A DNA stretch of 64,000 bases from Pelagomonas calceolata. Taxonomy: Eukaryota. Below the pieces are notes generated by a model that saw only the letters and a list, made by a program, of their open reading frames with translations, did not search any database and was not told the DNA's origin. The position numbers were made by a program, and so were the translations under genes. Below are positions 15,135 to 39,400 of this stretch, one piece after another (the first letter of the stretch is position 1; each line of letters starts with the position of its first letter). Where the stretch lies: positions 5,084,001-5,148,000 of the forward strand of contig CAKKNE010000005.1 of NCBI GenBank assembly GCA_918797485.1, in the 5' to 3' direction.

Positions 15135-15946
15135 ATGACGCGCAGCGGCGGTGCCGGCCGGGCCAAGCCGCCCGCCGCCCGGGCCAAGCCGCCCAAGACG
15201 AAAACCAACGAGGGCCGCTGGACGGACGAGGAACACCGCAAGTTCCTCGAAGCGTACGAGGCGATGGTCGCGGTCGACCCGGCGCGCCGCCGCTGGCCGA
15301 ACGTGGCCGCGGCCGTCGGTGTGGAAATCAACGAGTGTCGAGCAGGCATTGCGTCGATGGCGCGGATTCGATGCGAACGCCGTCAAGGATTATCTACACA
15401 GGCGGCCGTCGGCACGCGCTCGACGACCCAATGCCGCTCCCACGCGCAAAAGTACTTCAATGTGCGGAAATCAAACGTTCGGGCGAGTAAGCCTAAGACG
15501 CCTCGTGCGAGGACGCCAAGCACTCTCGCGCTGCGTCGAGGCCGCCAGAATAGTAGATAATACCTCCAGGCCGGCCTGACGCACTGGTTCCGCACAGGTA
15601 CTTCAAAAAATTGCGAAGGGCGGCGAAGAAACGCAGGGCTGTGCCAGCCGCGCCGGCGCCGCCGGTCGTCGTCACGGACTCGGACAGCTCGCTGGACGTG
15701 TCGTCGACCTCGCGCTCGCCGCGCGCGGCCGCCGCGCCGCCGCAAGCCGACTACGCAGCCGTCCCCACGCCGCCCGTGCAGCCGCGCGAGGGCTCCTTCG
15801 ACGACAGCCTCTCGCCGACGAGCGCTTTGCTCCGCGAGCCCATCGTGGACGACCGGGCGCTGACCGTCGACGACGCGCCGCACCTGACGGGGCCGATCTC
15901 CTCCTGGGCCTCCCTCTCCATGCTCGACCCAGGCTTCACCGCCTGA
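15135..15946 (+). CDS. SHAQKYF-class single-repeat MYB transcription factor (exons 15135-15308, 15402-15451, 15598-15946; ~190 aa)
   Basis: GRWTDEEHRKFLEA...W..VAAAVGTRSTTQCRSHAQKYFKK is restored once two introner introns are removed; frames are consistent. Confidence 0.9.
15309..15401 (+). mobile_element. Introner intron 1 (GC-AG; element 15317-15401)
   Basis: TSD gcggccgt at 15309-15316 and 15402-15409; ends cggtgtggaaatcaa / ttatctacacag. Its 93 nt interrupt the MYB domain in frame. Confidence 0.85.
15452..15597 (+). mobile_element. Introner intron 2 (GT-AG; element 15460-15597)
   Basis: TSD gtacttca on both sides; ends atgtgcggaaatcaa / ggttccgcacag. Close sequence sibling of the element at 35862-36003. 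Confidence 0.92.
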
Positions 15947-15999
15947 CGCTTCCTCTCTAACGCTTATTCTCTAGACACGATACAGAATTACACATAAGA

Positions 16000-16788
16000 C
16001 TACTCCGCACCACGCGCGCACCGCAGCGTGAACGACACGCGCTCCCCCGCGCGGCCCACGACGTCGCCGACGCGCGCGTTTGCGGCGTCGAGGTTCACAC
16101 AACACAAACCGATCGTGTCCGGAGCCGCCCCGATCTCGTGCGTGCACTCGGTATACGCCTCGCGGGAGAACGCCAGGAGCGACCGCCGTCGCAGCAGCAC
16201 CTCGCAGCGCGTCGCCGCCGCGCGGACGCCGATGTCGCTCGTTTTCAGGCGCTCCTTGAAGACGACGACGGCATCGGCGCCGCACGACAACGTGAACGTC
16301 CGATCGTCGTACGCGGGCCCGTCCGTGTGCGGCAGCACGTACGACTCCTTCGCGAAATCGTACGCGTTGACCAAAACGTGGTTCGGCGCCGGCCTTGACG
16401 ACGTGTCGCTCGCCGCGGCCGCGGCGCAGGCGTCGCGCGCCCACCGCGGGAGCGGCTCCGGCGCGAAGCTGGCCTCCCCCGCCGGGCCGCCCAGCCGTCT
16501 CAGTCGTCGGCCGCGCACAGTGACCCAGTCGTCGCCGCGCTTCGCCGCAGCCACGATCGCCGCCTCCTCGGCCTCGCTGATCCAGTCCGCCGCGTAGGCG
16601 ATGGTCGGCGGCGCGCCGGGCAGGGTTTGCAGCGGCGGTCGTTGTGTTGACGGGTCGAGGGCCGCGGTGGCGGCGTCGGGCGGCGGCCGGCGCTGCTGCT
16701 GTGGCTTGGGTGCCGGCTTTGCTACGGCTCCGCTCCTCGCTTTGCGCTTTTCGGCTCGCAGCATTGCTGCGAAATCGAGTGCAGACAT
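16000..16788 (-). CDS. AlkB-family 2OG-Fe(II) dioxygenase (ALKBH6-like)
   Basis: GRRL...GG, PNHVLVNAY, LPHTDGPAY (HxD), RRSLL, THEI, RVSFTLR. Confidence 0.85.
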   Translation of the reverse strand: MSALDFAAMLRAEKRKARSGAVAKPAPKPQQQRRPPPDAATAALDPSTQRPPLQTLPGAPPTIAYAADWISEAEEAAIVAAAKRGDDWVTVRGRRLRRLGGPAGEASFAPEPLPRWARDACAAAAASDTSSRPAPNHVLVNAYDFAKESYVLPHTDGPAYDDRTFTLSCGADAVVVFKERLKTSDIGVRAAATRCEVLLRRRSLLAFSREAYTECTHEIGAAPDTIGLCCVNLDAANARVGDVVGRAGERVSFTLRCARGAE

Positions 16789-17112
16789 CCGACGAGCTAC
16801 TCACGATCCTCAAACGATGCGTTCGCGTGTGTTAAGGGCGTGATGAAGCTGTGGTTGCTGCTAGTATGTTACTACACTAGCACCACCCATCCTCCAACTT
16901 TTTTGGCTGGGAAGAGCCGTTGCTTGCAGTGGTGATTAAGCTTCATCATTTCAACACCTGACGAAATTCGCAACGCATCGCTTGCGACAGCTGAAACCCC
17001 AGGACTCACCCGAGCCCCTGGTGGGCCTGGTGCAGCACAGCAGCCAGCCAAGGAGTAAAAACATTGAGACCAGCCGGTCGTCAGAGCAAGCAAGCAGGAG
17101 AACGTACAACTG

Positions 17113-18517
17113 ATGGCTGGCCGCGAGACGGTCGACGCGCACGGCTGGCACGCCCAGTAAGGCTCCCGTCTCAAAGACGAAGACATCGTACCACTGAGAA
17201 TCTCCTCGTAGGTATCACGGCCACCCTGTGCACGCCCTCGAGGTCGTCGAGCGGCAGCTGCGCGCGCAGGACAAGCCGAACCTCGTGTTCTTCGCCGGCG
17301 ACTCGAGCCTGGACAACAAATTCTGGTTCGAGAACCGCGCGAGGGCCGCGAACGGCTACGAGCACATTTTGCGGCCGCCTGAGAGCAAATTGGATGTGGC
17401 CTACCACGTCAACAAACTACTCGAGGCGCGGAATCCGCGCTGGGCCTGCGTCAACACGGCCGTCGAGGCGACGAGTCTGAATGATCGGGCGTTCGGCAGA
17501 CTGCTCGAGCAGGATCAGTTCCTGCGGGATTCGGTGCGCGAGACGGACGCCGTCGTGATCAGCGTCGGCGGGAACGATATCGCGCTCGCTCCCCTATTGT
17601 GCACGTGCTGCAACGTGGCGCCGCTACTCTGCATCGGAGGCCTCTGCGGCGACGCGATCGACCGCTGCGCCTGCGCGTGCCCGCCGGACGTCTACACGCC
17701 CTGCGGGGGCGCCACGGACTGCGGCTGCTGCCTGTGCGGGCTGCCCGGCTGCCTGACGGGGTTGTGTGGGTTCCCTCCGGGCCTGGGGTATTTCGTGGAC
17801 TTATTTGGAAATCGGGTGAGGGCGTACGCTTCAAATTTGGTGGCGAAGAAGAAGCCGCGCGTCGTCGTGATATGCATGATCTACTACCTGGATGTAAATG
17901 GGCGCGGCTCGTGGGCCGACGCGACCCTGCAGTTGCTCGGCTACAACTATGCGCCGGGCGTCTTGCAGCGGGGGATCCGGCAGGTCTATCGGAACGCGAC
18001 GAAGCGGATACGCCTGAATGGCGTTCCTGTTGTTGCTTTGCCGTTGTTCGAGGTCTTGGACGGCTCCGACACGCGCGACTACGTCCAGCGCGTCGAGCCG
18101 TCGCCGACCGGGGGCGCAAAGCTCGCAAAGGCCATCGTCGACGCCGTCCTCGACGCGACCGACGCGGAGGACCGGTCTAGGAATCCTATAACCACAAAAG
18201 AACAGTCTACAACCCTGGCGCCGGATACAGAGCGCTCCACCCCAGCTTCCTCGCCTGAAAAAGCGCCAGCGCCCGCCGCTCCTCCTCGCTCAGGTCGGGA
18301 TGCCAGACGTCCACGAGCAACACGTACGCGTGGCGGTTGGCGCGGCGGTTGTACGCCGTGTGGGGGAACGACGTGTCGACCAGCGTCGGCGGAAGCGGCC
18401 GGCCCGTCGCGTCGTGCCATTGAGCGACGGCCCGGAGACCGCCAACGGGCTCGGCGAGCGCATCATCGAGGTCCGCGAAGGCCAGCCCCGCGCCGTCACT
18501 CGGCAAGTCTAGCTTAA
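17113..18517 (+). CDS. SGNH/GDSL hydrolase-like protein with Cys-rich insert (exon 17113-17156, GT-AG intron 17157-17211, exon from 17212; 3' end uncertain)
   Basis: FFAGDSSLDN block I, VISVGGNDIA block III, and DYVQRVEPS..GG. The intron phase fits. The frame runs ~310 nt into the convergent gene. Confidence 0.75.
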
Positions 18518-19799
18518 AGTCGAGGCGAAACGCGAGCTCTTCGGCGTCCGGCGCCGGTGCCGCGTCGTCCTCGTGCAGTAGATCAAGCGGCACGTGGGCC
18601 GTGAGCACGTAGGTCGCCTTGTCGCTGTGGACGGGTAGCGCCGAGTCCGGCCGCTGACGACCGAAGCCGACGATCCGCGGGCCGTCCGGGACTTCAAGGG
18701 AGTCGAGCAGCGCCGTCGTGGCGGGAAAGCTCGCGGCGCGCCGCGCCGACGCCGCGGTCCGCACCTCGAAGAGCTCGAAATTGCGATACCCCGCCGCGCC
18801 GCCGTACAGGAAGCCGTCGCGCCAGGCGCCGCCCTCCGCCCGCAGCCGCGCGCGCTCGAAGAGCACCTCGCTCATCTCGTCGGCGATTTGCGGTGCCTGC
18901 AGTCGCAGCCCGAAGAGCCACTTCGGCGGCGCGTCCCAGACCGGATGGGCCGCGAGCCCGGGGTAGTGGCCGTCGCGCGCGACGACCTGGCCCGAGGAAA
19001 GTCTGCGGAGCGCCGGTCCCTGGTCGCGGCAATTCGCGCAGAACTCGTCAAAACGCGGCAGCGCCGCTTGCTGGCCGTCGTAGACCGCCTCGCATAGACC
19101 GCGCCAGAAGTCCGCGTCGTCGAGGGCGTCGCGGCGCGGCGTTGCGACCGCTGCCGCCGGCCGAATTGCGCCTCGACGAGTCGGCCGTTTAGTGGTTCCG
19201 GGCGCGAGGGCGCTCGCGCCGACGAGCGTGGCGGCGGCGACGAGGCGGCGCGCGGCGGCGGGCGTCGCGGCGCGCCCGCGGCCCTGGCGCCGGCGCGGAG
19301 CTGTCCGCGGCCGTAGGATGAGCGTCGCCGACGCGGCGCCGGACGCGTAGGCGGCGAGACCCGCGTAGGCGGGCACCGACGCTGCGCCAAGCGTGGCCAA
19401 GAGCACGAGCGCCGCCGGCACGAACCGGGACGGCCGCTGGTGGTGCGCGAGCCAGGTCCACGCCGCGCCGCCCATCAATCCGACCGTCAAGACACCGGCC
19501 GGCGCCGTCGCGCCGCGCAGCCGCAGCGCCACGACGCACACCTCGACGAGGCCCGCGCCGCGGTGCACCCAGAGCGGGTGGCCGAGGTCGCCCTCGACGA
19601 GTCGTAAGTAGGCGCGCGGCGCGACGCCTTGCACCGCAGCCAGGCTGAACACCGTCACGAGATACGCCTCGCACCACAAGACGTGATTCCAGTCGGCTTG
19701 GCTCGCAGCGATGGTAGCACTGAAGGCTGGGATGAGTACTAATGCAACGAAGAACAGCGGCCCGTCCCCGGCTCTTGGGAGCGGCTTGCTTCTCGCCAT
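18207..19799 (-). CDS. Aspartyl/asparaginyl beta-hydroxylase domain protein with N-terminal hydrophobic region (may be two adjacent genes)
   Basis: LPVHSD...LTAHVPL...VDTSFPHTAYN...VLLVDVWHPDLSEEERRAL matches the Asp_Arg_Hydrox pattern. Confidence 0.75.
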   Translation of the reverse strand: MARSKPLPRAGDGPLFFVALVLIPAFSATIAASQADWNHVLWCEAYLVTVFSLAAVQGVAPRAYLRLVEGDLGHPLWVHRGAGLVEVCVVALRLRGATAPAGVLTVGLMGGAAWTWLAHHQRPSRFVPAALVLLATLGAASVPAYAGLAAYASGAASATLILRPRTAPRRRQGRGRAATPAAARRLVAAATLVGASALAPGTTKRPTRRGAIRPAAAVATPRRDALDDADFWRGLCEAVYDGQQAALPRFDEFCANCRDQGPALRRLSSGQVVARDGHYPGLAAHPVWDAPPKWLFGLRLQAPQIADEMSEVLFERARLRAEGGAWRDGFLYGGAAGYRNFELFEVRTAASARRAASFPATTALLDSLEVPDGPRIVGFGRQRPDSALPVHSDKATYVLTAHVPLDLLHEDDAAPAPDAEELAFRLDFKLDLPSDGAGLAFADLDDALAEPVGGLRAVAQWHDATGRPLPPTLVDTSFPHTAYNRRANRHAYVLLVDVWHPDLSEEERRALALFQARKLGWSALYPAPGL

Positions 19800-19961
19800 G
19801 TTTTTTTGCAGGCTGCAGGCTGGCTGCTGGCTGGCGGCGCTAGTGCTGCAGCTCGCTGGCGGAAGTGGTGATTATTTTTCTCCGCAGGATCTTATGCTCG
19901 CTCGAAGAGCAATACTGATGCCTTGCGCGCCGCGACGCGGGCTGCTGCTGCGAGCCTGAAG

Positions 19962-19984
19962 CTAGTATGTCGGTACACTAGCAC
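19962..19984. promoter_or_regulatory. Representative copy of dispersed motif B, CTAGTATGTnnnTACRCTAGCAC
   Basis: Other copies at 16861 and 57765; all upstream of gene starts. Regulatory role inferred. Confidence 0.5.
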
Positions 19985-20114
19985 TATGCGGGTCTTGTCC
20001 CTCCGCAGCCCTGGACAGGGGCTCCGCCAACTAGTCCCAGCACCGTAATAACACCGATGCGAGTACTTTTTATTAGGGGTCGGAGCGCGGCCTAGGTGCC
20101 GTCGACGCGACGTC

Positions 20115-20516
20115 TCACGCGACCCCGACGTAGGGCGACGCCTGGACGCCCGGCGGCCCGTCGTAGGCGTCGTCGTGGCGGAAGCGCGCTCGCAGCGCCG
20201 CGCCGGTCACGAGGAAGGCCACGACCAGGGCGATGGCCAGCTGCACGGAGTCGTTCGCCAGGCACGCCGGCAGGCCCGCCGCCGCCTGAATCTGGGGCTC
20301 GTCGGCGTCGGCTATAAGGTTCGTCCAGTTCCTCGTTTGCGCCGAGAAGGCCCAGACGTCGTTGAGCCTTGCATATTTTTTTTTGCCGCTCTTCCGGGAC
20401 TTGATGTGCTCGCCCCCAAATAAAACGATGGCGTGGCCCCCGGGCCAGGCCGCCATGGCGGCGCACGCGGTGAGCAGCAACGCGGCGGCGAGCCTCAGGG
20501 CGTGGCGTTGCCTCAT
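20115..20516 (-). CDS. Small signal-peptide/TM protein containing one Kelch blade (possibly an internally deleted Kelch gene)
   Basis: Hydrophobic N-terminus, IVLFGG...LNDVWAFS..TRNWT, then a C-terminal TM segment. Confidence 0.5.
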   Translation of the reverse strand: MRQRHALRLAAALLLTACAAMAAWPGGHAIVLFGGEHIKSRKSGKKKYARLNDVWAFSAQTRNWTNLIADADEPQIQAAAGLPACLANDSVQLAIALVVAFLVTGAALRARFRHDDAYDGPPGVQASPYVGVA

Positions 20517-20774
20517 GGCGCGTCGGTGGCGCTTATTGGGCGTCTCCGCCTTCTTAAGGAACGCCCCGAGCACTGATATCGTAGGCAACAAGCGCGTATG
20601 CCTTGCCTGAATCTCGGGTGAAGTCACTGAAATGTTGCACCCACGAGCGAGAGATGCTCAAAGCTCTTCGGTGGGTTCGTACGTGATGAAAGGATCACGA
20701 AAAGGCGCCGTGGGTCCCCCGTGTATGCAAGTAGTAGGCGCACACTCCTGGGTGGTGGTTTGGGCTTTTTGCTT

Positions 20775-20798
20775 GCTAGTGTCTTACAGGCCGCTAGC
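20775..20798. promoter_or_regulatory. Representative copy of dispersed motif A, GCTAGTGTCTTACAGGCCGCTAGC
   Basis: Other copies at 21042, 31189, 45020(rc), 46683(rc), 49834(rc), 56009; all intergenic. Regulatory role inferred. Confidence 0.55.
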
Positions 20799-21091
20799 CC
20801 ACCTAAGCGCGGGAGCCCTGGAAGCCGCGCCCCGGGGACGGGATCTCCTCAAACTGGCTCATTGCCGAACTGACTCATCGCCGGGCACGCGGACTAAAAC
20901 TTCAATATAGAAGTTGACCGCGGGCCGACACCCACGTCCCATTGAGGCTTGGCGCTTTGGCGCCGTGGGGTGGCGGAACGGACGCATGAGGTCTTGGCCC
21001 CACCGCCGAAAGACCAATCTTGGGGCCCCGCTTGCTTGCTTGCTAGTGTCTTACAGGCCGCTAGCTCATAAAAAAAAACAAAAGGTATAGC

Positions 21092-21823: not shown

Positions 21824-22107
21824 GGTTTTGCAGTGCGCTGCTGCAGAAGGCGCAAGTTTGCGCGTTTGATAGTATGGAGCCGATGCGGCGCTTTGGATGA
21901 TGATAGGATGATAGACACACTAGACTCAAAACCGCGGGAAAGATACAGGGAGGGATCCGCCCCGACAATGCCCTCGCTAGGACCCCTAGTACGGTTCACA
22001 CAGCCGCCTCATGTCGTGGTGCGCGCTCTCCGGCGCTAGACAGGAGAGCGCAGCAAGACGCTGCCCAACAAAGGGGAAAGTACGCACATCGACTGGAAAA
22101 CGGCGGC

Positions 22108-24912
22108 ATGGCAGCGCCCTCGCAGCGCATGGCCAGCCAGGCCTCGCCCAAGGCCGCCGTGCGCGACGCCAAGGAGGCGCGCAACGCGCGCATCCGCCGC
22201 TCCGCGTCGTTCCGGTCGAGCATCACGGAAACGCTCTCTCCCCTAGAACAGCTGCACCTGCCCATCGGCTTCGCGTCCGTCCCGCCGGACCACCACAGCA
22301 AGCGCGATAGTCGGAATAGCCTCGACGACGACGTCGAGGTCCACGTCGAACCGCGGAAGATCGTCGTCTCGGACTGCGTGGCCCACGGCGTGCGGGCGCC
22401 GGGCGCGCGCGACGGCATGGTGCTCGTGGCGGACGGCTCGAGGTCGCCGCGGGCGATGAAGCTGTTTCGCGTGATGCGCGGCGACTACTTGAAGCGGCCC
22501 TGGGACGCGGCGCCGCACCTGCTGCCGGACCTGATCAAGCAGGACCGCGAGCCGTGGGAGGACCGCGTAGCACAATGTGTGAAACGGCGGCGCGAGTTGG
22601 AAAGGGCGTTCCGGGCGAAGACGCTGCACGAGCTGGGGCGGGACGACCGCCGGCGCGCGCGCGCGGCGCGGGCGCACAAGGACGCGGCGCTCCTCCGCAT
22701 GGTCGCGCTGGGGGCGCGCGCCGAGTTGATGAAGGGCGAGCTCCTGCGGGACCGCCGCGAGGCCGCCGAGGAGGAGGATGACGACCACGAGGAACAAGCG
22801 GTCGCGGCGACGCCGTCGCCGAAGCAGCGGTCGCGGAGACGCGACCGGCGCAGGGCCGCCGAAGCTTTAACGGGAGAATCGTCGACGAAAATAGGTCGGT
22901 GGTGGCTCGGGCTCAAGATACGGTGGCTCCTCAACGGCATAAGCATCGCGCGGCGCGTCCGCGTCACGCTCACGGTGACCAAGATCACGCAACAGATCAT
23001 AGCCAAGTACCGGAACCGCGTCTATCGACGGAGCGCGGACATCATCCACCACTTCCTGGCCAAGGCCGAGAAGTGCCAGGGCAAGCGCGGCATGAAGTTA
23101 CTCGTGAGGAAGATCAAGCTCGCGCAGCGCATGGTGCGCGGCTGGGTCGCGACGCGGCAGGCGCGGATCGCGGCGTTGCACCGCGCCTTTGCGCTCGCGG
23201 AGATCGACTTCCAGCACGAGCTCGACAGAAGGCGCGTCGAGGTCGAGGTCCACGCTATCCGACGGACATCGCATCCGGACTCCATGTTCTACGCTGTGTG
23301 GAAATCAACCAGTGTGTCGGTTCAGCAAGAAGGCGCCGTGAAATTTTGATTTCCACACAGGTTCTACGACCGCGCCCAGGCTCTGGCTACGGCGGACCAC
23401 CGGCTGCAGGCGATCTTGCCCATCGAGGGCAATAGTCTCGTGGCGCAGGTCTTGCGGAGGGCCGAAATCCGGAGCCGGGATCCGGAACGGGCGTCGCGGG
23501 AGCTTCGGGAAGAGGTCATCGTCGACGACCCGTACCACCACGCGGTGTTCAGTCGCAAAGAGCGGACGAGGACCGTGGAGGAGGTCTTACGAAGAGTGCG
23601 CCGATGGCACGGCACGCACGCCGTCGAGGCCTACGAAAAGTATTTACAGAAGTGCCACGAGGTCCGCGCCGACGACGTCCGCGCCCGTGTAGAAATCAAA
23701 TTTGTCGCGACGCGTCTCCGCTTATGGTTGAATCATAAATTCCACGCCATCGACGCGGCACCTTCTCGACGGCATGGCGGTGTGGGTTTTACACTCGCCC
23801 CTCGCGCTGCGCGGCGCCGTGACGAACGAGCCCGGCGCTCGTGCTCCGCTACGAGCGCGCCGGCGACGAGGCGGTCGAGGACGCGCCCGCGTGGCTGCAA
23901 AGCGCCCCGGTCGTCGTCGAGGTGACCGCAGCAGCAAACCAACAATTGGCGGTCACCGAGGCGCCGGACGTGGTCGGCGTCGTGCGTTTTGAGGGCGTGG
24001 CCGTGGCGCCCGTGCCAGCCAGCACGGGCACGTCGTCGCCGAGAATGACTCTGCGATGCACCCGACTTACTGGTTGATTCATGCACAGGTGCGGATCATG
24101 CTCGCGAAGCCCGGGCGCCTCACACGGCAGGACACGCTCGACGTCCTGCAGCGGCCCGCGGACAAGGTGTCGCGGTACCCCATGTTTCGGCCGCTCACAG
24201 GGCCGCACAACGTTCTCGAGGAGATGCGCGTCGAGCTGGAACCTGTGTGGAAATTTACGGCGCGTTCGTCCTGAATCGCCGCGTATCTAGACCTCCACGC
24301 CATCGCCGCGACGCCTGCTCAATACGTGGCGGTGTCGGTTCCTCACAACTCGACTCAGCCAGCACGGGCACGACGACAAACTGGTTGATTTGATTTCCAC
24401 ACAGGCTGGAACGGGTGCACGCGTGGCGCCACCCGCCGCGCAAGGAGCGGTCGAAGCGCAAGCGCGCGGCGCGCGTCATTCAGGCGCGGTGGCGCGGGAC
24501 CCCGCTGAAGCCCGAGGTGGACCGCGACGCGCTCGAGGCGATCTTCACGGAGTTCTGCCGGGTCTACCGCATGGCCGACATGAACAACACGATCTGGGCC
24601 AAGCTCTGTAGGGAGACGAAGGGGCTGCTGGACGACAAGTTCACGCGCGACTCGGGCATCGACATGATCTGGACGCGCTGCGCGAAGACGAACAAGACCG
24701 TCGGCTTCCCCGTCTTCGAGGCCATGCTGCGCGAGGTCGCGGCCCTGAAGGGCATGGATCTGTTTCAGCTCGAGTCGTTGGTCGTCGAAAACGCGAAAGT
24801 GAAGCAGTCCGGCACCAAAGCCCAGAACGTCAAGTTCTACGAGGTGCCCAAGCCGAAGACGACGAAGGGCGACCAGATCGACCTCGCGTCGATGACGAAC
24901 ACGGGGCGATAA
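22108..24912 (+). CDS. IQ-motif protein with C-terminal p25-alpha/TPPP-like domain (exons 22108-23285, 23361-23676, 24089-24234, 24405-24912; ~715 aa)
   Basis: Four ORF pieces join in frame after removing three introner introns. IQ motifs AQRMVRGW and IQARWRG. LEAIFTEFC...MNNTIWAKLCRE...IDMIW...F..ML.EVA..KG...SGTKAQNVKF resembles TPPP. Confidence 0.75.
23286..23360 (+). mobile_element. Introner intron 3 (GT-AG; element 23294-23360)
   Basis: Perfect TSD gttctacg and perfect 15-bp TIR ctgtgtggaaatcaa / ttgatttccacacag. Confidence 0.95.
23677..24088 (+). mobile_element. Introner intron 4 (GT-AG; element 23685-24088) with ~220-bp internal insertion
   Basis: Ends ccgtgtagaaatcaa / ttgattcatgcacag; TSD diverged (gtccgcgc / gtgcggat). 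Both flanks align with the elements at 36332 and 24243. The phase-0 join fits. Confidence 0.75.
24235..24404 (+). mobile_element. Introner intron 5 (GC-AG; element 24243-24404)
   Basis: Perfect TSD gctggaac; ends ctgtgtggaaattta / ttgatttccacacag. Confidence 0.92.
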
Positions 24913-24927
24913 GACCAAGATAGCTAC

Positions 24928-29111: not shown

Positions 29112-29143
29112 TAGTGTGTTAAAATTTTCCAGACAGTCACGGT

Positions 29144-29299
29144 ATATGTATATGATTATTCCGAGGATGCGGGTCGACGGGAAGGGGAGGGTAGGACCGC
29201 ACCTTAGCCGAAGGAGCCGCGCCGCCGCTTCGCCAGGCGCCGCGCGATCGCCTCCTTGTGGCGCGCGGCGCTGTCGGCGCGGCTCTGCGTCCGCGCCGC
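29144..29299. repeat. Direct-repeat copy A (~155 bp) of 33276-33429
   Basis: atatgtatatgattattccgaggatgcgggtcgacgggaaggggaggg...ttagccgaaggagccgcg...ctctgcgtccgcgccgc is near-identical at both sites. Confidence 0.95.
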
Positions 29300-29352
29300 C
29301 GCTTCCCGGTGTTTCTGCTACTTCAGAATAGTACTTACTCGAGTAACCCCGC

Positions 29353-29960
29353 TCAGTCGTCGAGGAACATCATCTCGAACTCGCCGGCCTTGCTCTCGAG
29401 GCCCCCTTGATCAAGCGTCTCGAAGCGCGGCTCCGACCAATTGGGGTCGATGAAGACGAGCTGGCGGATATGGGGCGCGTCGAGCGCCCCCACGACCACG
29501 CGAACGTGGTCGCCGCAGACGAGCAAACCGGGCATGCGGTTCGGGACGCTGTAGTACTCGACTACGTCGTGCAGCACGTCGGACGCCGCGTCTACCCCTT
29601 CGTAAGAAAAGGTCGACGCCTCGATGCCCGCGTGGCCGAAGAGCACCTTCGCCTCGGGCGCGCCCAAGGACGCCAGCCGACCGCGGCGCCCGACCAACGG
29701 CTTGGGCGACCGCCCCACGATGAAGTCCTGTCCGTCGGGATCGAGACCGTCACCCCAGGCCGCCACTAGCGCCGCCTGTAGGTCCCTGATCGATGCGGCG
29801 TCGCCGTCCTCATCGACCAGGTGACGAGATCGTAGCGCCGCCTCGTGCGCTTCGCCGCGGTTCGCGACCGCGACCAGGACCATTTGGATCGCCGCATAAG
29901 AACAGCTCCACCAGTAGCGCTGGTGATATAGCGGAACCACGCCTGCGCATAGGAGAACGC
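29353..29960 (-). pseudogene. ZUP1/Mug105-like peptidase C78 domain, lacking a clear ATG (fragment or gene with unresolved 5' exon)
   Basis: YHQ..WWSCSYAAIQM, SIRDLQAALVAAW..GLDPDG, LGAPEA, GDHVRVVVG, VFIDP parallel the C78 Cys/His/Asp motifs. Confidence 0.6.
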
Positions 29961-29974
29961 CGGCGTGTAGCCTC

Positions 29975-30341
29975 GGGTCATCTCGCACTCTCCCTCGCAC
30001 GATTTGGGAAGTACGTCTCGGACCTCCCGGGCCAGCTCACGGTCGGCGAGAAGTTCCGAGACGCCCTCCGCGCTGCCGAGGGCAAGGCCTTCCCGCCTGC
30101 GACCGCGGACTACGATCCCCTCGCGAGACACGTCGCCGAGAGCATCGCCAACTACCTCCGGAACCCCATCAGAATGACCTCGACCGGCAACCTCGAGCAG
30201 TACGAGCTCGTCATCAACGAGCTCTTCGACTTCGCGAAGTACATCGTCGAAGAGTCCGCGAGACACACCCCTGTGGACCCCCCTCTCAATTTTGACGAGA
30301 CGATGTGGGACAGCCGCGACCACATCCTGGAGGACGGGTAA
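29975..30341 (+). pseudogene. Coding-like fragment of unknown family, back-to-back with the C78 fragment
   Basis: Strong GC3 codon pattern and natural composition (…NYLRNPIRMTSTGNLEQYELVINELFDFAKYI…), but no start codon or promoter space. Confidence 0.4.
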
Positions 30342-31286
30342 TTTTAATTTTTTGTCCTGGGCAGCGCACGAGCGTGTCGACGGGGAGGCGGGCGGTCGCC
30401 GCTTCGGCCGCGCGTCGCACCGGGCGTGACGACGAGAGGCGGTGTCGCGGCCCCGCGGTCCGACGAACCATCTATGTCTGGCCGCGACGCGGTCGACGCC
30501 AGGTCCCGCGCGGCGACCGCCGACGCTCGCGTAGGAACCGCACCGCGTCGCTTCGATCAGAAGCGGTCGCGTCCCGCCGCTCCAGGGCTTGGCGAAGGCT
30601 TCGGTGGCGCTCATCTATCGCTCTGGATGGCCGCGACGCGATCGACGATACGTCTTGCACGGCGGCTGGCGCTTTTCTCGGACGACACACATAGCATCAC
30701 GTCGAAGCAGACTGGAAGCCGTCAGGCGCGGCCTCGGCCTTCCACGGCCCCACGAATGCTATGGCGGTGCCCGAGCGCGTTCAGGGACACGTCGTCCTGA
30801 CGCACGGGCCAGCGCAGGCGCTCGTCGGCATCGCGCCGCACAGGCCGCGGGTCTAGGTATGCGCCGCGCCGGTCAGTCGATCGCTGCTCTCGGCGCCAGC
30901 GAGCGATGCGCACCGCGCGACACGGCGGTTTCGCGGACGAGTCCGCGCGTGGTAGTAATTGTCGAGGCGCCAGCGCGCAGCACGCTGGGACCTCTGCGCT
31001 GACGCAACCGATCGCTAAGCCGCCGCGGTGGCTGGGCTGCTGTGGCGTGCTGTTCAATCTCGCCAGCGCGGCAGCAGCGCTCGTCGCGACTGCGCGACGA
31101 GCTCAAGACCGAGCCGGAGCAGTGCTGGCTTGCGTTTTTTGAGAGATAATTGCACGAGTGTGGCGAGCACGGCCGCGAGAGCTTGCTGGCTAGTGTCTTT
31201 ACAGCACGCTAGCCCTGCTCCGGCGCAAGTTTCAGCTCTCGCGGAGTTTTGAGGGCATTCGAACAACAGTGGTAGCAGTTAACATT

Positions 31287-33208
31287 ATGGATCGCATCCG
31301 AGGCTGGTTCGGCGGCAAGCGCGGCGTCGACACCGAGGCGCCCACGCCGCCGCCCAAGCGCAAGGCCAAGGAGGCACCCAAGCCGGCGGAGCGGCACAAC
31401 ACGTTAGCCGCGTGCGTCGCCAAGGGGCCCGACGCCTACACCGTAACATTAGAAAACGGCACCATCGGCGGCGTCGGCGAGAAGGGCGGTCTGTCGGACG
31501 AGAAGCTGCGGCAAGAAGCGACCCGCTCGCGCGACGCGCCGGTGCCCACGACAAAAAGTCCGGTAGTCGACGCGAGCTGGGAGCAGCAGCCGCGCGTGCT
31601 GAACCCGGCCCTGCTCGGAGAAGGCCTGCCGGTCCCGGAGGGCACGTTCGCCGGCAAGAAATGGTACGAAAATCGCTGGTTGCCGTGGCAGTGGACCATC
31701 TACCTCCAAATGATGTACTGGGTGCAAAAGGCGCGCGGTGTCGTGCCCCAGTGCTGTTTATGTTTGGGCTTCATTAGCTTTTGTACTGCGGACGCGCTGG
31801 TGCGGTCGGTGCTTCGCTGCGCCTTTGGGACGCCGTTTCTATCTAACAATAGCGTCGTGCGGGTGGCTTGCCGGTGTCCCGCGCAACCGCCCGACGCGCC
31901 CATCACGCCGCCGCGCGCAGGTCGACCGTAGGTTGATGGAAGCGGCCGCAGATCGGGCCTGGGAGATGCGAAAGAAGTTTGATTTGAGGCCGGGCGTTAT
32001 TGTTAATGTTACTACTCCGGAGACGGCGGAAAAAGGCGTGTGGGTGGGGGAAGGTGGTGCGGGCAAGGCCGATTGCTACTCCTCTTATTGCACGGGCGAG
32101 GCCAAGCATACCCGCAATCACCTTAAAAGTCTACAATCGAAGGGCCTCGGCGGCATGGTTTATACCGACCTCATTGCGTCTCTGCAACGCGAAGGGGGCA
32201 CTGATGAAAAGTCAGCGCGCTTTGGCAATTTCGTCAAAGAGTGCGGCGCCTCGGAGATCTTCTGCGCCGACGACGTTGATGCAGAAGATGTTAGCTTAGC
32301 TTTGTGCGACGATGGAGCTGCCGGCGACGACGGTGTGGTCCAGCTCGTCCTGCCCGTGTGGTGTTCAGCGGCCGGCATGGAGGTCACGATGCGACTCACG
32401 ACCTGCGAGACGGCGGCGTCCTCCTATTTCACTTGTTTTTGTCGACATTTTTGTGATAGGTCGCGGGCTGGCCGACACGGTCGAGGAGCCGGACGCGGAG
32501 TACTGCGAAAGGATGTGCGCGGCCGTCGACGATATGATTGGGGGACGGGGGAGTCTCGCAGATAGGTACCGTCGGACGGGCCTGATCTACAACGAGAAAG
32601 ATCCCTCATCTAACGGCGAGCTTTCTTGGATTCTTGCCGCCTCCTATAGCTCGAAGAAGGACATGGGAGCATATGTTATCGCCTTAAATAGGGCGCGGAA
32701 CGGTTCACGAGCGCTGGTCGAGCAGACGAACGCGGCGTTGGAGGAGGTCGCCGCGGTGCAGGGCACCAATCTAGAGGCGCTGCGGGCCGACGCCCGCAAG
32801 AGAGAGATAGTAGTGAAGGAGGTGCGGCGCGTCGGCTTTGGCAACGTACCGAAGCAGGCCGGCTTCGGCAAAGATTTGAAAAGGGGCTTCAAGCGCTTCC
32901 TCGGGGATGTGACGAAGCGGCTGCGGTTGACTGGGTGCATGGGGTCCGCCAACACGACGGCCCACCATCCTCAGATCTTCACGGGGACCGCGGGGACCGC
33001 GCCGATGCCCCCGGCGGGGCCGCCGCCGGGATACGCGCTTCCGCCCGCGCCTGCCGCGGCGCCCGCGCCCGCGGCGCCTCAGACGCCGGGTCCGGGGGGT
33101 CCGCGGCGCTTCTCCACGCCGATGGGGCAGGACGCGGTCGACAACCAGCGGGGCCCGCCGCGGAACGCTCCGCCGTCGGCGCAGCGCAGCGCGTTCCAGA
33201 CGCCGTAG
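31287..33208 (+). CDS. Hypothetical multi-exon protein (probable introns ~31731-31920 GC-AG and ending ~32459)
   Basis: Three consecutive coding-like ORF segments separated by intron-like stretches; lower GC3 than neighbours. The second donor is unresolved. Confidence 0.5.
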
Positions 33209-33275
33209 TAGGCCGCTGAGAGATCGCCTGGGGCGTCGCCCTGTTGTAGTTAACTACTGTAAGCTCATGCCAGTG

Positions 33276-33429
33276 ATATGTATATGATTATTCCGAGGAT
33301 GCGGGTCGACGGGAAGGGGAGGGACCACGCACCTTAGCCGAAGGAGCCGCGCCGCCGCTTCGCCAGGCGCCGCGCAATCGCCTCCTTGTGGCGCGCGGCG
33401 CTATCGGCGCGGCTCTGCGTCCGCGCCGC
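33276..33429. repeat. Direct-repeat copy B: last codons, stop and 3' flank of the receptor gene
   Basis: See 29144-29299. Confidence 0.95.
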
Positions 33430-36400
33430 AGCCGCGCCGCGTTCCGCGGCGAGGAGCGTCTCGTAGGTCGCGTCGTCGTCGCCCGGAGCAGCTGCGGCCG
33501 CGGTTTCCTGGGGCGCGACCTTCCGTTCCTTTCGTTTCGGGAAGAGCCGCATGAGCAGCGAGACGCGGCGGCCGGTGTTGCGCACGGAGAAGTTCCTGTG
33601 CAGCGCCTTCAGCGCCCGGCTGCTGCTGATCTTTGCCGTTCGCAGCATGTGGCGCTGGGACCGCTGCTTCATGAGTTTGGAATGCGTCATCGTGTGATGG
33701 GCCTCGACTTTATGTAGCTTCTCGCTCGAGACGGCCCGGAAGATCTGGTAGAAGCGTTGTTGGGCCGCGGACGCCTTCCTGACTTCGGTATCGTGTATTT
33801 GTATCTCTACCAGAATGGAGACCTGTGCATGAATCAACCGGTGAGGCGTCGATGGCGTGGAGGTCATGATTGAGCCGTGGTGGAGACGCGGCGCGACAAT
33901 TTGATTTATGCACTGATCGAGACGTCGTTGCTCGACGGCTTGAACTCGTAGACGGCGTGTAGGTTAAAGGGGACCTGGCGCCGACAGATCTTGTTCTTAA
34001 GTTTTTTTAGCGTGAAGAGCGGGCTTGCCTATGCGCAAATCAATCAATGAGTCGGGTGCCGAGGAACCGGCACCGACGCCATCGAGCTGGCGTCGCGTCG
34101 ACGGCGCGGAGGCCACGATTCAGCAGACGCGCCGCAATGCTTTGGTTTGGGCACTGGGGCTCGCATCGAACGCCGCCTTGACGTCGCACATGGCCTGGGC
34201 CCCGGGGCACACGACCGTCGCGCGCAGCGCGTCGCGCACGAGCGCGCTGACGGGCTGCCACCCGGCGCCCTCCTCAGCCTGATGTTTCTTGGCAATTTCC
34301 GACTTCATCGCCTCGACCATGCGCTCGGCAGTCTTAATGGAGCCCTCCTCACTCACGACCTGTGCGCAAATCAACCAGTGAGTCGGCAATTCTTCACATG
34401 AGAATTTGATTTATGCACTGCTCGCGACGACCACAGCGCCCTCCACCTGCTTGGCGACGTCGGAGAGCGCCGCCGTCAGTGCAGGTAGGCAGGTAGCAGC
34501 GAAGATGCGGAGCAGGGGGGGCAGCACCGTCTGGTCGAGCGCGAGCTTGCCCTTGACGAGGATCTCGGCGTCGGCCTTGAGCGTCGCCTCAGAGGCGCAC
34601 GATTTCATCTGTGTGTGCAAACGAACCGGTCGCTTTCGAGAAGAGAGGGCTGAATCATTGATATAGGGCACTGGCCTCGACGGCAGCCACAACAGCCTCC
34701 GTGAGGTTGGTCCCGGCGCCGCCGCGCCAGATCAATCGCTGCTGAGGCTGTGGGTCGCTTCTCTCCGGGTTGAGCTCTTTGACCTGCCTCAGCACGTCAA
34801 GCAGATCCGGCGACAGCAGCTCCTCGGTGATGTAGTCTTCGAGCTCGTCCGCGCGCGCCTGCGCCTCGCACCGTAGCCAGGCCCAACGCGTCGGAACGAA
34901 GTCCTTGGCCTTTGCCCATTCCTCGTCGTCAACCTCGTCGTCGGCATCGTCGCCAGCTGCGTCGGGCGCAGGGCCGCGCGCGAGCTTGAACCGAGCCGGC
35001 CGTGGCGGCGCCGCGGCTTCGTCGACGTTGGCGGCTGCGTCAGGCGCTGACGGCGCGTCGGCCTCCGGCGCGGGCGCGAGCTTAAAGCGCGCTGGGCGCT
35101 GTGGCGCCCCGGCCGGCGCAGCGGCGACGGCTGCGCCTGGCGCGAGGAAGGCCGAGGCTCGTTCCACGCGGCGCTGCGCATCGCTTTTCGCCCGGGCGGC
35201 GACTCTGCGGTACCAGTGGCGGATGCGGTGCTGCTCGTGCGCTTCGATAAGCGGCTCGCGCCAGAATGTGTGCAAGGAACAAATTTGGCTCCGAAATATA
35301 CCCCACTGCGTATCAGCCTGTGTGAAACTCAACCACTGAGTCGGGTGCAACACCGCCCGCCATCGAGGAGACATTGCGTTGATGGCGTCGAGATCGACGC
35401 GATGATTCGAGACCAAGGCTCCGTGAAATTCAATTTATGCACTGGTATCAGCATTTGTGTCGCTCCAGGCGAAGTCCCCGAGATAGCCGTCGACGATGGC
35501 TTCGAAGGTCGCACTCTCGAGCAGGTGCCTGCGTAGGAAAACACCAACGTATATACCGAACGATTGTCAGCAAATCGAAACAAGTCGAAGGCTTTATCTT
35601 CTGCACCGGAAAGTGCTCGCCGCCCTCCGTGCACAACGTCTCGAACTCGAATCGGAAATTCTCCGTGCGCAGGCGGCGCCTGTGCGCAAATCAATCAGTG
35701 AGTTGGGTGCACGTCGATGGCGAGACGCGCCGCGACGATTTGATGTATGCGCTGGGCGGCGCCGAATGCGCGCGCAGAGCGTCCGGATCGGCTTCTCGTA
35801 GGCGTAGCGGCGCACCGCCAGGACCAGCACGAAAACCTGGGCCGCGACGAGCGCACCCGACCTATGCGGAAATCAAACGTTCGGGTGAATAAGCCCAAGA
35901 CGCCTCGTGCGAGGACGACAAGCACTCTCGTGCTGCATCAAGGCTGCCAGAATAATAAATAATACCTCCAGGCCGGCCTGACGCACTGTTGATTTCCGCA
36001 CTGCACCCGACACGATGCGGAGCTGCTCGAGCTTCAGTGTCTTCTGCGTGCAGCAGAGCGCCATGAAGAACGTCGACGTGACGAAGAACCAGGACGTGTG
36101 CGCGACCGTGTTCACCGCTGGCGACTGGAAAGGCTCGCCGTCGGCCTGTGTGGAAATCAAATTTTACCGCGCATTCGTGCTGAATCATCCGACGCACTGG
36201 TTGATTTCCACACAGCCGTCGACGATGGCCAGCGCATAGAGCAGCGAGATGACGAACGAGAGCACGAGTCGCATGCGCCGCGCCCCGGGCAGACAGACGA
36301 GGAGGAAGCCGCTCAGCGAAGTGCGCACGACCTGTGCATAAATCAAATTCTTGCGGCGCGTCTCCGCCACTGCTGAATCATGGCCTCAACGCCATCGACG

Positions 36401-39400
36401 CGACGCCAGCTCCATGGCGTGGCGGTGTGGGTCCTACACCACTCGATTCAGTCATCAAGGTCGCGTTGTCGCATCAAGGTCGCGTTGTCGCATCAAGGTC
36501 GCGTTGTCGCCGAGAAACGACTTAGTGAAGAATGATCGGGTGCATGCGACTCACTGCTTGATTTTCACACAGCGCACGACCATGGAGAGCGGCTCGGCGA
36601 ACCAGGCGCCCTTGCGGTAGGGCCGGACGAGGGGCGTCGGCCGCAGGATGTCGCTGAGCGCCTCGCAGTCGACGCAGCTGCCGAACGTCGCGCGCCGCTG
36701 GCGGATTTGCTCGAGGAGGAGCACGGCGAAGAAGAGGCCTGTGTGGAAATCAACCGGTGGGTCGGGTGCACCCGACAATTCTTCAATCAGTCGTTTCTTG
36801 GCGCTGACGCGGCCGTCCTGGCTCGATCGAGCGGCGAGGAATCGACATCGCCACGCCATCGAGCAGGCGGCGCGTCGATGGCGTGGAGGACGACGCGACG
36901 GTTCAGGACGAACGCGCCGTAAAATTTTGATTTCCACACAGGAAGAGGCCCGGCAGGCCGACGACGTAGATGAGGCAACACAGGATGGCGTAAGCCCGGT
37001 AGGCCTGGTACCTGTGCGAATATCAACCAGTGTGTCGGGTGCACCATCGAGCAGGCGTCGCGTCGATGGCGTAGAGGTCGACGCGGCGATTCAGGACGAA
37101 CGCGCAGTGAATTTGATTTTCACACAGCCTGGTACCGCTTGGACGACGCCCGGATGGTGTAGTCCCGCGCGAGGTAGAGCTCGCGCTCCGTCGCCGACGT
37201 CCGGAAGCCGCGCTCGTCGGCCGTGTGGTACTCGACGCCGTCCAGGTGGAAGAACTCGAAGAGGACCGAGCAGACCGTCGCGTGGCACATGATGAGGAGC
37301 ACGGCGAGCCGCCGGCAGGCGCGCCGCTTCGCGTCGGGGTCGCGCGAGCAGAGCGACACGAGCGCGACGACGAGGACGAGGTAGAGGGGCAGGAGCGTCG
37401 CCATGAGCAGCGTGTGGTAGTACGACCAGCCCGCGCAGGGCGTCGGCAGCCAGGCGGCGAGGTCGAAGGTCACGAGCGCGTAGATGCGCATGAGCCACTT
37501 GAACGCCCCCGGGTAGTCGACGTCCTCGACGCTCGAGAAGCGCACGAGGACCGCGAGCGAGTGCCAGATCGCGAGCGCGCACGTGCTCGTCAGGAAGCTC
37601 CAGACCTCGCGCTTCGCCGCGCGCCAGACGCGCACCGCGCGCCAGCCCTCGCACGAGAGGGCCGCCGGCCAGCGGCAGCCGCAGAGCGCCCCGAGCGACG
37701 CCGCCGCGGACCACGCGACCGCGCCGACGAGCGCCAGGGCGACGATCATGGCGACGGCGTAGACGACCCGCAGGAAGACCGACGGCCTGGCGCCGCACCG
37801 CTTGCACCGGCGCAGGACGGGCTCGAGGTAGTAGCCGTCGTCGCAGAGCTGGCAGAGCGGCCCGCGGTGGTGCTTGGCGCAGAGCGCGTTGCCGCTCGAG
37901 TTGCCGCTGGCGCAGCCCTCGTTGCGCTTGCCTGTGTGGAAATCAACCAGTGAGTTAGGTTAGACCTTTGTGAACCTCCACGCCATCGAGCCGACGCGGC
38001 CACGGGGACAACGTCGCGTCGATGGCCTGGAAATTCCACGCCATCGAGCAGACGCAGCTACAGAGACAAGTGGGGCGCCCGAAATTCGATTTCCACACAG
38101 GCGCCTGCAGCGGTAGATGGCCGGCGTGTCCATCGAGAAGCGGTAGAAGCCCGCGCGCACGCCCCAGGGGCTGCCGAGCGTCGAGCCCTGCGGGCACGTC
38201 GCCGACCAGGGGCAGCCGTGGCACGTCCGGTTGTCGTAGTAGTAGTCGCGCTCGCACACGTCGCAGGCCGCGGCGCCCGGCGCGCTCCAGCGCCCGGCGC
38301 CCTCGGTGCGGCAGCTCTCGCAGAAGGTCTGGCCGGCGCTCCGCGCGAAGCGCCCCGCCGCGCACGCCTCGCACGCCGCGCGGCCCGACTCGGGCTGGTT
38401 CCGGCCGGCCTCGCACGCGAGGCAGACGCGCGCGCCGGCGGCGCTGACCTTGCCCGCGTCGCAGGCGTCGCACTGGACGTTCAGCGGGCTGGCCGCCGTC
38501 AGCTCGGCGGCGCGGCCCGCCTCGCAGGCCTCGCAGCGCTGCTGCCCGGGCGCGGACTGGTAGCGGCCGTTCGGGCACTTGGCGCACGCCGTCGCGCCGT
38601 CGGCGTCGCTGTACGTGCCCGGCGCGCACGGCAGGCACGTCGCGCGGTCGGGCGAGTACGAGCCCGCGGGGCACGTCGCGCAGTAGAGGCCCAGCGGCGA
38701 GTAGCTGCCGGGGTCGCAGTCGACGCAGGCGATGGTCCCGCCGGGCAGCGGGCTCTCGCGCTGGCCCCGGGCGCAGCGCGAGCAGCTCTGCGAGCCCGTC
38801 GCCGCGAACTTGCCCGCCTCGCAGGGGAGGCAGCTGCCCGAGCCGGGCGCCGTGTTGAAGGTGTCGAGCCCGCACGGCCGGCAGCTCTCCTGCCGGTGGT
38901 CGGGCTGGAAGTAGCCCGCGGCGCAGGGCGTGCAGGGCGCGACGCCGCCCGCGCCGTACGTGCCGGCGCGGCAGTAGCGGTCGGACTCCCGCGTCGGCGC
39001 GAGCGTCGGGTCCGACGACGGCGCCGGCGTCGGCCGCGGCGTCGGCCGCGGCGACGGCGCGGGCGTCGGCCGCCGCGACGGCAGGGGCGTCGTGGGGCCC
39101 GGCGTGGGGCCCGGCGACGGGCCCGGCGTCGGCCGCGGCGAGGGCGCGGGCGTCGGCGCGACGGAGGGTGCCGGCGTGGGCTTCGGCGACGGCTTCGGCG
39201 TCGGCGCGGGCGTCGGGTTTGGCGTCGGCTTCGCTGTTGGTCTTGGCGTCGGCGCGAAGACCGGCGCGGCCGTGGGATCGCCGGGCACGGGCGTCGGGTC
39301 CGGCGTCGGTTTCGGGGTCGGGCGTGGCGAGGGCGAGGGCGTCGGCTTCGGCGTGGGTACCGGCGACGGTCGGGGCGTCGGGGTCGGGGTCGGCCGCGCG

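What the first reader, a model, noticed from the sequence alone, without database searches (positions are those of the whole stretch)
15309..38108. Family of 18 introner transposons that are scarlessly spliced
Seen: 18 elements of ~60-400 bp share TIRs (consensus CTGTGYGGAAATCAA) and 8-bp TSDs that start with GT (10) or GC (8) on the host strand. Splicing from the first TSD's GY to the TIR's terminal AG removes the element plus one TSD copy and restores the reading frame in every case. Established: this matches the introner mechanism described for the pelagophyte Aureococcus, and 8-bp TSDs are typical of hAT/P-type transposases. Copies range from perfect to barely recognisable, giving an age series of intron birth. 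No transposase is present in the window.
Basis: partly seen in the sequence, partly recalled or inferred. Interest (0 to 1): 0.75.

Follow-up and report, generated by a model that had tools for sequence, protein, structure and literature searches.

The report
Transposon-made introns in a marine alga
Eighteen small repeated DNA elements interrupt three genes of a marine alga, and RNA reads show that all ten tested are cut out exactly as introns; they are likely copies of a cut-and-paste jumping gene already catalogued in this species, so the kind is known, though wild relatives likely differ in which copies they carry.

Summary
Confirmed, and already known. The 18 elements (61-404 bp) have shared inverted ends and 8-bp target duplications starting GT (10) or GC (8). 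RNA reads show 10 of 10 tested junctions at the predicted positions, in two studies. A syntenic relative lacks 5 of 5 testable elements. A tool record names a window protein as Pelagomonas calceolata, where introners are published: 956 putative elements, and a 340-copy hAT-classed family that co-opts the donor and carries the acceptor.

Additions here:
- Close wild homologues appear to differ in both directions: some lack window copies, and they carry at least five copies at sites empty in the window (protein-level inference).
- Decay is an unreliable age clock.
- The 404-bp copy carries a host Clp1-kinase gene fragment, and the reference annotation misses this intron.
- Seven donor-side ends read CAG-N-G, the hAT motif, hinting that one base change created the acceptor.

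No transposase was found in the window; no genome was available. The scan noted introner-like elements in other genomes, none for this DNA.

The parts
15135..15946 (+). Host gene 1: Myb-domain protein, 190 aa after removing 2 elements
   Evidence: uninterrupted orthologue in L002
15309..15409 (+). Element 15317-15401 with both TSD copies (perfect, GC donor); predicted intron 15309-15401
   Evidence: site empty in L002; junction not tested by RNA
15452..15605 (+). Element 15460-15597 (perfect TSD, GT donor); 92% identical to element 35862, opposite orientation to its host
   Evidence: site empty in L002; junction not tested by RNA
22108..24912 (+). Host gene 2: 715-aa protein with C-terminal p25-alpha domain after removing 3 elements
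   Evidence: full-length homologues P0103 (98%), P0006/P0007 (64%)
23286..23368 (+). Element 23294-23360 (perfect TSD and TIRs, GT donor)
   Evidence: spliced in reference protein P0098; present in 5 wild homologues, absent in L001, P0099, P0103, L002
23677..24096 (+). Element 23685-24088, 404 bp, TSD copies differ at 4 of 8; GT donor; missed by the reference annotation
   Evidence: no gene-strand RNA reads at 23714-23739 in X21; absent from 9 of 9 close homologues
23798..24014 (+). Cargo inside element 23685: fragment of a host Clp1 P-loop kinase gene (residues about 23-30 and 57-118)
24235..24412 (+). Element 24243-24404 (perfect TSD, GC donor)
   Evidence: absent from 9 of 9 close homologues and L002; junction not tested by RNA
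33334..43359 (-). Host gene 3: 2783-aa FG-GAP-repeat / Pro-Thr / Cys-rich / transmembrane protein; 13 elements in its 3' part
   Evidence: transcribed from the minus strand
33815..33923 (-). Element 33823-33915; intron 33823-33923 (101 nt, GT)
   Evidence: RNA joint 167/168/104 reads and X14 contig
34021..34164 (-). Element 34029-34156; intron 34029-34164 (136 nt, GC)
   Evidence: RNA joint 54/23/23 reads; shared with P0177
34352..34428 (-). Element 34360-34420; intron 34360-34428 (69 nt, GT)
   Evidence: RNA joint 107/52/47 reads; absent in P0177
34601..34681 (-). Decayed element 34609-34673; intron 34609-34681 (73 nt, GT); TSD copies differ at 5 of 8
   Evidence: unambiguous RNA joint 100/68/74 reads; present in 4 and absent in 5 close homologues
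35310..35452 (-). Element 35318-35444; intron 35318-35452 (135 nt, GC)
   Evidence: RNA joint 36/31/27 reads
35521..35616 (-). Decayed element 35529-35608; intron 35529-35616 (88 nt, GC)
   Evidence: RNA joint 43/26/26 reads
35672..35762 (-). Element 35680-35754; intron 35680-35762 (83 nt, GC)
   Evidence: RNA joint 21/15/16 reads
35854..36011 (-). Element 35862-36003; intron 35862-36011 (150 nt, GT)
   Evidence: RNA joint 17/14/16 reads
36138..36223 (-). Element 36146-36215; intron 36146-36223 (78 nt, GT)
   Evidence: RNA joint 22/17/17 reads
36324..36580 (-). Element 36332-36572; intron 36332-36580 (249 nt, GT)
   Evidence: RNA joint 27/24/21 reads; depth 0.2-0.6 inside against about 20 in flanks
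36731..36949 (-). Element 36739-36941, 203 bp, perfect TIRs and TSD (GC donor); highest-copy type
   Evidence: junction not tested directly
37004..37135 (-). Element 37012-37127 (perfect TSD, GT donor)
   Evidence: junction not tested directly
37924..38108 (-). Element 37932-38100 (one TSD mismatch, GC donor)
   Evidence: junction not tested directly

Best explanation
These are spliceosomal-type introns (GT/GC..AG), shown spliced in 10 of 10 tested cases, that were likely made by a non-autonomous cut-and-paste DNA transposon, probably of hAT origin. Shown: each element lies between two copies of an 8-bp site beginning GT or GC; the RNA loses the first copy plus the element, from that GY to the AG that ends the element's inverted repeat, so message length is restored; both orientations occur; sites are empty in a syntenic relative. 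Inferred: a transposase encoded elsewhere (not found) binds the ends and makes the 8-bp staggered cut; insertions in exons survive only where the target starts with GY, because the element brings the acceptor but no donor; spread is recent or continuing, since close wild homologues appear to differ in both directions. More speculative: the ancestral end was the hAT-type CAGTG, and an A-to-T change at position 2 created the acceptor AG, first at one end and later at both.
For: Anatomy and chance controls. Frames. RNA: 10 of 10 joints, 14-168 reads each in three raw-read runs of one sample, all on the gene's strand, plus one contig from another study carrying all ten; unique GY..AG cut each time; nine RNA-like runs hold 0.63-0.67 of the words of 33300-39000 against 0.65 expected if all 13 are removed. 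DNA runs X2-X4 give gap-free contigs across four of the spliced elements (34357-35890), so these exist in DNA. Empty orthologous sites: 5 of 5 in the 73-kb metagenome contig L002. Two-way differences among close homologues. High copy number: depth at 36760 is about 280-1200 times single-copy depth in three DNA runs, a rough guide only. Published match: PMC9481584 suppl. note 3; PMC12130899 suppl. file 8, fam2. YARNG motif: PMC3014272; 7 of 18 donor-side ends fit it.
Against: Eight of 18 junctions were not tested directly; the first lay was swamped by reads of other copies. No cognate transposase was found, and no genome was held. Only 7 of 36 ends fit YARNG, so the hAT label leans on the 8-bp TSD and on a published RepBase match that I could not check. 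The opposite-orientation pair 15460/35862 shows a changed end on the unused side in both, which fits decay after insertion as well as an ancestral CAG end. Presence/absence among wild homologues is read from predicted proteins of unnamed contigs, not from DNA; an uninterrupted protein can come from spliced RNA (L001 is ambiguous in this way). All DNA runs whose long contigs were listed matched the window letter for letter, so they gave no empty alleles.
Confidence: 0.9

Rival explanations
1. Ordinary MITE insertions that break the genes (pseudogenes); the GY/AG ends are incidental.
For: 17 of 18 give early stops if retained; the reference protein P0098 reads into element 23685 and stops at 580 aa.
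Against: 10 of 10 tested are spliced, with little retention where measurable; 18 of 18 start GY where about 18% of positions do; no gene-strand reads at four positions inside 23685.
Confidence: 0.02
2. Old inherited introns that were lost in relatives, later homogenised by gene conversion.
For: One copy (34609) is shared with homologues about 85% identical; elements are mosaics of shared modules.
Against: Site-specific 8-bp duplications; empty sites hold a single copy; relatives carry family ends at sites empty in the window.
Confidence: 0.03
3. The introns spread through RNA (reverse splicing of the excised intron), not as DNA transposons.
For: All 18 lie in coding exons; no transposase found.
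Against: The donor-bearing 8 bases differ at each site and belong to the target, not to the element; the same subfamily lies in both orientations (15460 and 35862, 92% identical); the ends are inverted repeats.
Confidence: 0.03
4. Same introner mechanism, but mobilised by a non-hAT transposase (P, Merlin or MULE type; TSD lengths recalled).
For: 29 of 36 ends do not fit YARNG; most pelagophyte families are left 'Unknown' in PMC12130899 suppl. file 8.
Against: 8-bp TSD plus CAG-N-G in 7 ends; published hAT call for P. calceolata fam2.
Confidence: 0.2

Closest known systems
P. calceolata introner elements (Guerin et al. 2022, PMC9481584; passages of main text and supplement note 3 read)
   Same: Same species by a tool record; GT and GC donors, AG acceptor, conserved TIR, length peak near 210 bp (element 36739 gives a 211-nt intron); 956 putative copies.
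   Different: Its figure S3 and its element table could not be seen, so whether these 18 are listed is unknown.
P. calceolata introner family fam2 (Gozashti et al. 2025, PMC12130899; passages and supplement rows read)
   Same: 340 copies, TIR DNA / hAT, 202 bp, 13-bp TIR, 'co-opt 5-prime, carry 3-prime', gt 281 / gc 42.
   Different: Consensus not seen, so identity with this family is inferred from anatomy; TSD length is NA in that row; GC donors are commoner here (8 of 18).
Aureococcus anophagefferens introner elements (Huff et al. 2016; not held; details recalled, and seen only as cited in PMC9481584, PMC7789003 and 10.1101/2022.06.06.494994)
   Same: TIR plus direct repeat of constant length, canonical splice sites; donor from the TSD and acceptor from the element (recalled).
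   Different: Different species; sequence relationship not tested; nucleosome-linker preference not tested here.
Pack-type TIR transposons (Pack-MULE and kin; recalled)
   Same: Element 23685 holds a host gene fragment between family ends.
   Different: It is predicted to be a spliced intron in a coding exon; its TSD is not intact; mobility with the cargo is not shown.

Membership tests
Pelagophyte introner elements | Multi-copy family of related introns | tested here: met
   Pairwise identity 70-92% among many window copies; very high depth over copies in DNA runs
Pelagophyte introner elements | Terminal inverted repeats | tested here: met
   27 matches against 1.01 expected; position table
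Pelagophyte introner elements | 8-bp site-specific target duplication | tested here: met
   16 of 18 with at most 2 mismatches; identity drops at position 9
Pelagophyte introner elements | Donor co-opted from the TSD, acceptor carried by the element, precise splicing | tested here: met
   10 of 10 RNA joints; unique GY..AG cut; 8 untested
Pelagophyte introner elements | Lineage-specific positions (empty orthologous sites) | tested here: met
   5 of 5 empty in L002; variable among close homologues
Pelagophyte introner elements | Sequence identity with a published family consensus | not testable with these tools
   Consensus or element lists not visible
Pelagophyte introner elements | Insertion into nucleosome linkers | not tested
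   Too few copies; no chromatin data
hAT superfamily, non-autonomous | 8-bp TSD | tested here: met
   feature as stated in PMC3014272
hAT superfamily, non-autonomous | YARNG terminal motif | tested here: inconclusive
   7 of 36 ends fit (all donor side); the rest mostly read CTGTG
hAT superfamily, non-autonomous | Autonomous partner with the same ends encoding a hAT transposase | not testable with these tools
   None in the window; no genome held; the cut published gene table lists only one Tc1-like DDE row under 'transposase'
Pack-type TIR element (copy 23685 only) | Host gene fragment between the element's ends | tested here: met
   84% aa to P. calceolata Clp1-domain protein P0149 over 63 residues; flanks align to other copies
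Pack-type TIR element (copy 23685 only) | Intact TSD around the cargo-bearing copy | tested here: not met
   4 of 8 mismatches
Pack-type TIR element (copy 23685 only) | More than one copy with the same cargo | tested here: inconclusive
   Transcript-derived P0164 shares the element-to-Clp1 junction and maps by its C-terminus to another gene model on the same contig; no second DNA contig was laid at 23936

The most novel reading that the evidence does not exclude
These introners are still spreading in wild P. calceolata and act as Pack elements: one lineage captured part of the host Clp1 kinase gene, moved it into a new intron of another gene, and at a second locus supplies the start codon of a chimeric Clp1 transcript; and the family records the step by which a hAT transposon became an introner, one base change at TIR position 2 that created the acceptor, first at one end and then at both.
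Probability: 0.3. Interest if true: 0.65.

Novelty: already known. Interest (0 to 1): 0.33.

Why it matters
The core finding is a clean, RNA-verified example of a published mechanism in a species where it is already catalogued, so it changes little by itself. The side results could matter. An abundant ocean alga whose wild alleles differ in intron presence in both directions would make fixation and loss of newborn introns measurable in existing metagenomes. The position-2 asymmetry gives a testable route from hAT transposon to introner. A cargo-bearing copy links intron gain with gene-fragment movement. One reference gene model is likely truncated by a missed intron.

Tried and rejected
Genome-wide scan for TIR+TSD pairs and an autonomous element: no genome held.

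First read lay at 90% likeness: swamped by other copies, no true junction among the 15 rows shown of 636; its listed long DNA contigs were identical to the window, so no empty alleles.

Homologue search with the transmembrane exon: none. Atlas search for taxonomy: only generic eukaryotic Ulp1 clusters.

Transposase candidates in the block missing from L002: no Pfam family for 31287-31928, 31936-32562, 32312-33205 or 29793-30338; Atlas hits for 32312-33205 at 0.81 or less, leads only, none a transposase.

Virus-borne copies: 0 matches to a 21-base end motif; 113 single 15-base matches, none with a partner TIR plus TSD and none similar to an element by blastn; treated as chance.

Three-codon loss at element 34609: rejected, since uninterrupted homologues have the same length.

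Idea that TIR pairing blocks the acceptor: folding predicts the AG paired (P at least 0.9 in 6 of 7 copies with CT-starting 5' ends), yet 36146 and 36332 are spliced, so pairing is no barrier.

Literature searches found no paper on Pelagomonas introner polymorphism or on introner gene capture in the held library; subscription papers are not covered, and I saw only the listings.
Full report
Observation. The consensus CTGTGYGGAAATCAA matches 27 times with up to 3 mismatches, against 1.01 expected from shuffles, and only between 15317 and 38100. Automatic pairing found 14 elements and one spurious cross-pair. Four decayed ones were added by eye. The 18 elements are 61-404 bp. Flanking 8-mers match their own partner at 0.83-0.94 per position over positions 1-8 and at 0.39 at position 9; 15 of 18 have at most one mismatch, against 1 of 306 cross-pairs; donors are GT 10, GC 8. 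They sit in three genes: a Myb gene (2), a p25-alpha-domain gene (3) and a giant FG-GAP / Cys-rich / membrane gene (13). Removing the first TSD copy plus the element gives stop-free frames of 190, 715 and 2783 aa; 17 of 18 cause an early stop if left in. Thirteen lie within 4.3 kb, which 0 of 20,000 uniform simulations reached.

Splicing is shown. Laying three raw RNA runs of one sample and RNA-like contigs of another study on 33300-36725 gave joints of 101, 136, 69, 73, 135, 88, 83, 150, 78 and 249 bases, 10 of 10 as predicted, with 14-168 reads per run, all on the gene's strand; one contig carries all ten. Among the equivalent cuts allowed by the duplication, the predicted one is the only GY..AG cut each time. 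Depth inside element 36332 is 0.2-0.6 against about 20 beside it. DNA runs give gap-free contigs over four of these elements. The other eight were not tested directly. Indirect support: nine RNA-like runs hold 0.63-0.67 of the words of 33300-39000 against 0.65 expected with all 13 removed; no gene-strand reads cover 23714-23739; the reference protein splices 23294.

Organism and prior work. A cluster look-up names P0098 as CAH0378280.1, Pelagomonas calceolata; it is identical to the spliced gene-2 product over residues 1-500 and lies on a contig of the same length as six other window proteins. Guerin et al. 2022 (PMC9481584; passages and supplement note 3 read, figure S3 and element table not visible) report 956 putative introner elements with GT/GC donors, AG acceptors and TIRs. 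Gozashti et al. 2025 (PMC12130899; passages and supplement rows read, file 13 not searched) list 11 families for this species; fam2 has 340 copies, is classed TIR DNA / hAT, 202 bp, and co-opts the donor while carrying the acceptor. Huff et al. 2016 was not held; its details are recalled or seen through citing papers (passages only). The supplementary table of candidate mobilising elements in the 2022 preprint was not seen and may bear on the transposase question. Depth over element 36739 is roughly 280-1200 times single-copy depth in three DNA runs, in line with hundreds of copies, though the tool warns that depth is no copy number.

Gain, not loss. L002, from a 73-kb metagenome contig, is syntenic with the window and about 65% identical in protein. 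Its Myb gene and gene 2 align as single uninterrupted segments, so 5 of 5 testable sites are empty. L002 has its own 58-base insert ending in a family TIR and AG at a site empty in the window, and it lacks the whole block 29119-43594 that holds 13 of the 18 elements.

Close homologues of gene 2. I examined 37 wild proteins 94-99% identical to gene 2 (at most 15 listed per cluster, e.g. 15 of 168). Five read into element 23294, 2 read through it, and 8 begin just after it, which suggests it is present; 9 of 9 that span 23685 and 24243 lack both; 3 read into a family end at residue 324 and 5 at residue 345, both empty in the window. L001 (94.6% identical) lacks 23294 and holds one TSD copy, but could be a transcript.

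Homologues of gene 3. Among 18 hits, element 34609 is present in 4 and absent in 5; P0177 carries 34609, 34029 and an extra element but lacks 34360; further family ends appear near residues 2413, 2450 and 2502. These readings come from predicted proteins, not DNA, and one (P0004) looks chimeric at its right end. They are strongest where one protein shows an unspliced element and an empty site together (P0175, P0176, P0177).

The age series is only partly right. The most decayed copy, 34609, is old enough to be shared with homologues about 85% identical, and its TSD can be recovered from the uninterrupted V-K-A codons. But 23685, with a 4-mismatch TSD, is missing from all nine close homologues, whose sequence matches the intron-side copy; the exon side carries the change. 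The same holds at 34360 and in part at 34609. Splicing is length-neutral, but the junctions are not always sequence-neutral; why is unexplained.

Cargo. The interior of 23685 encodes a fragment 84% identical over 63 residues to the P. calceolata Clp1 P-loop protein P0149, with about 26 codons missing after the first eight. A transcript-derived protein, P0164, begins with the same 17 residues, eight from element-internal sequence and nine from Clp1, continues through about 208 Clp1 codons, and ends exactly like another P. calceolata gene model on the same contig that has no match in the window. So the element-to-Clp1 junction likely exists at two loci. Against this, no second DNA contig was laid at 23936, although RNA reads there (15 of 17) differ from the window. 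The reference model reads into this element and stops at 580 aa, whereas wild homologues give the 715-aa form.

End asymmetry. On the donor side, TIR position 2 is not T in 10 of 18 copies (A in 7), while positions 1, 3, 4 and 5 are conserved in 17-18 of 18; copies whose 5' end does not start CT have more decayed TIRs (Mann-Whitney p 0.004, post hoc). CAG-N-G is the hAT terminal motif YARNG (PMC3014272, one passage read). Six of the seven CAG ends are the same end of the element, which fits an older one-way subfamily. The 15460/35862 pair fits decay of the unused end instead. This stays a hypothesis.

Mechanism. Shown: 8-bp duplication, donor from the target, acceptor from the element, exact splicing, both orientations, empty orthologous sites. 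Inferred: cut-and-paste mobilisation by a transposase outside the window (none in 31 frames; no genome), selection for GY-starting targets in exons, recent or continuing spread, hAT ancestry (about 0.7).

Verdict. Real, RNA-verified, and already known in kind and species. Interest 0.33, carried by the apparent two-way polymorphism, the cargo copy and the end asymmetry. The scan's earlier notes hold nothing for this genome or sequence, only introner-like cases in other genomes, which I did not test and which did not change the reading.

Noticed in passing
window 29119-43594: This 14.5-kb block, with the giant FG-GAP gene and several genes without Pfam family, is replaced by about 220 bp in the syntenic relative L002; 13 of 18 elements lie in it, all in the 3' part of one gene.
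   Followed up: partly
window 29198-29313 and 33328-33443: 93%-identical direct repeat that duplicates the last codons and stop of the giant gene about 4.1 kb downstream.
   Followed up: no
window 23677-24088: Reference protein CAH0378280.1 (P0098) reads into this element and stops at 580 aa; wild homologues give the 715-aa protein, so the gene model likely misses an intron.
   Followed up: yes
window 23774-24014; P0164, P0163: Element-internal sequence fused to a Clp1 kinase fragment; the same junction starts a transcript-derived protein that maps by its C-terminus to another gene model on the same contig.
   Followed up: partly
L002 4461-4518 (window about 17769): The relative has a 58-base insert ending in a family TIR and AG where the window has none; no GY donor at the length-neutral position, so it may add codons.
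   Followed up: partly
window 24089-24096, 34352-34359, 34601-34608: In three TSD pairs that could be polarised, the exon-side copy carries amino-acid-changing differences from uninterrupted homologues; unexplained.
   Followed up: partly
window 36466-36510: Element 36332 contains a short internal tandem repeat, about three copies of 21 bases.
   Followed up: no
window 16861-16880, 19960-19983, 20775-20797, 21042-21063, 45030-45043, 46691-46704, 49843-49856: A motif like GTAAGACACTAGC, or its reverse complement, recurs between genes and may be a promoter element (seen by eye).
   Followed up: no
window 31287-33208: Transcribed plus-strand gene region with no Pfam family and only weak Atlas leads; probably holds ordinary introns without TIRs.
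   Followed up: partly
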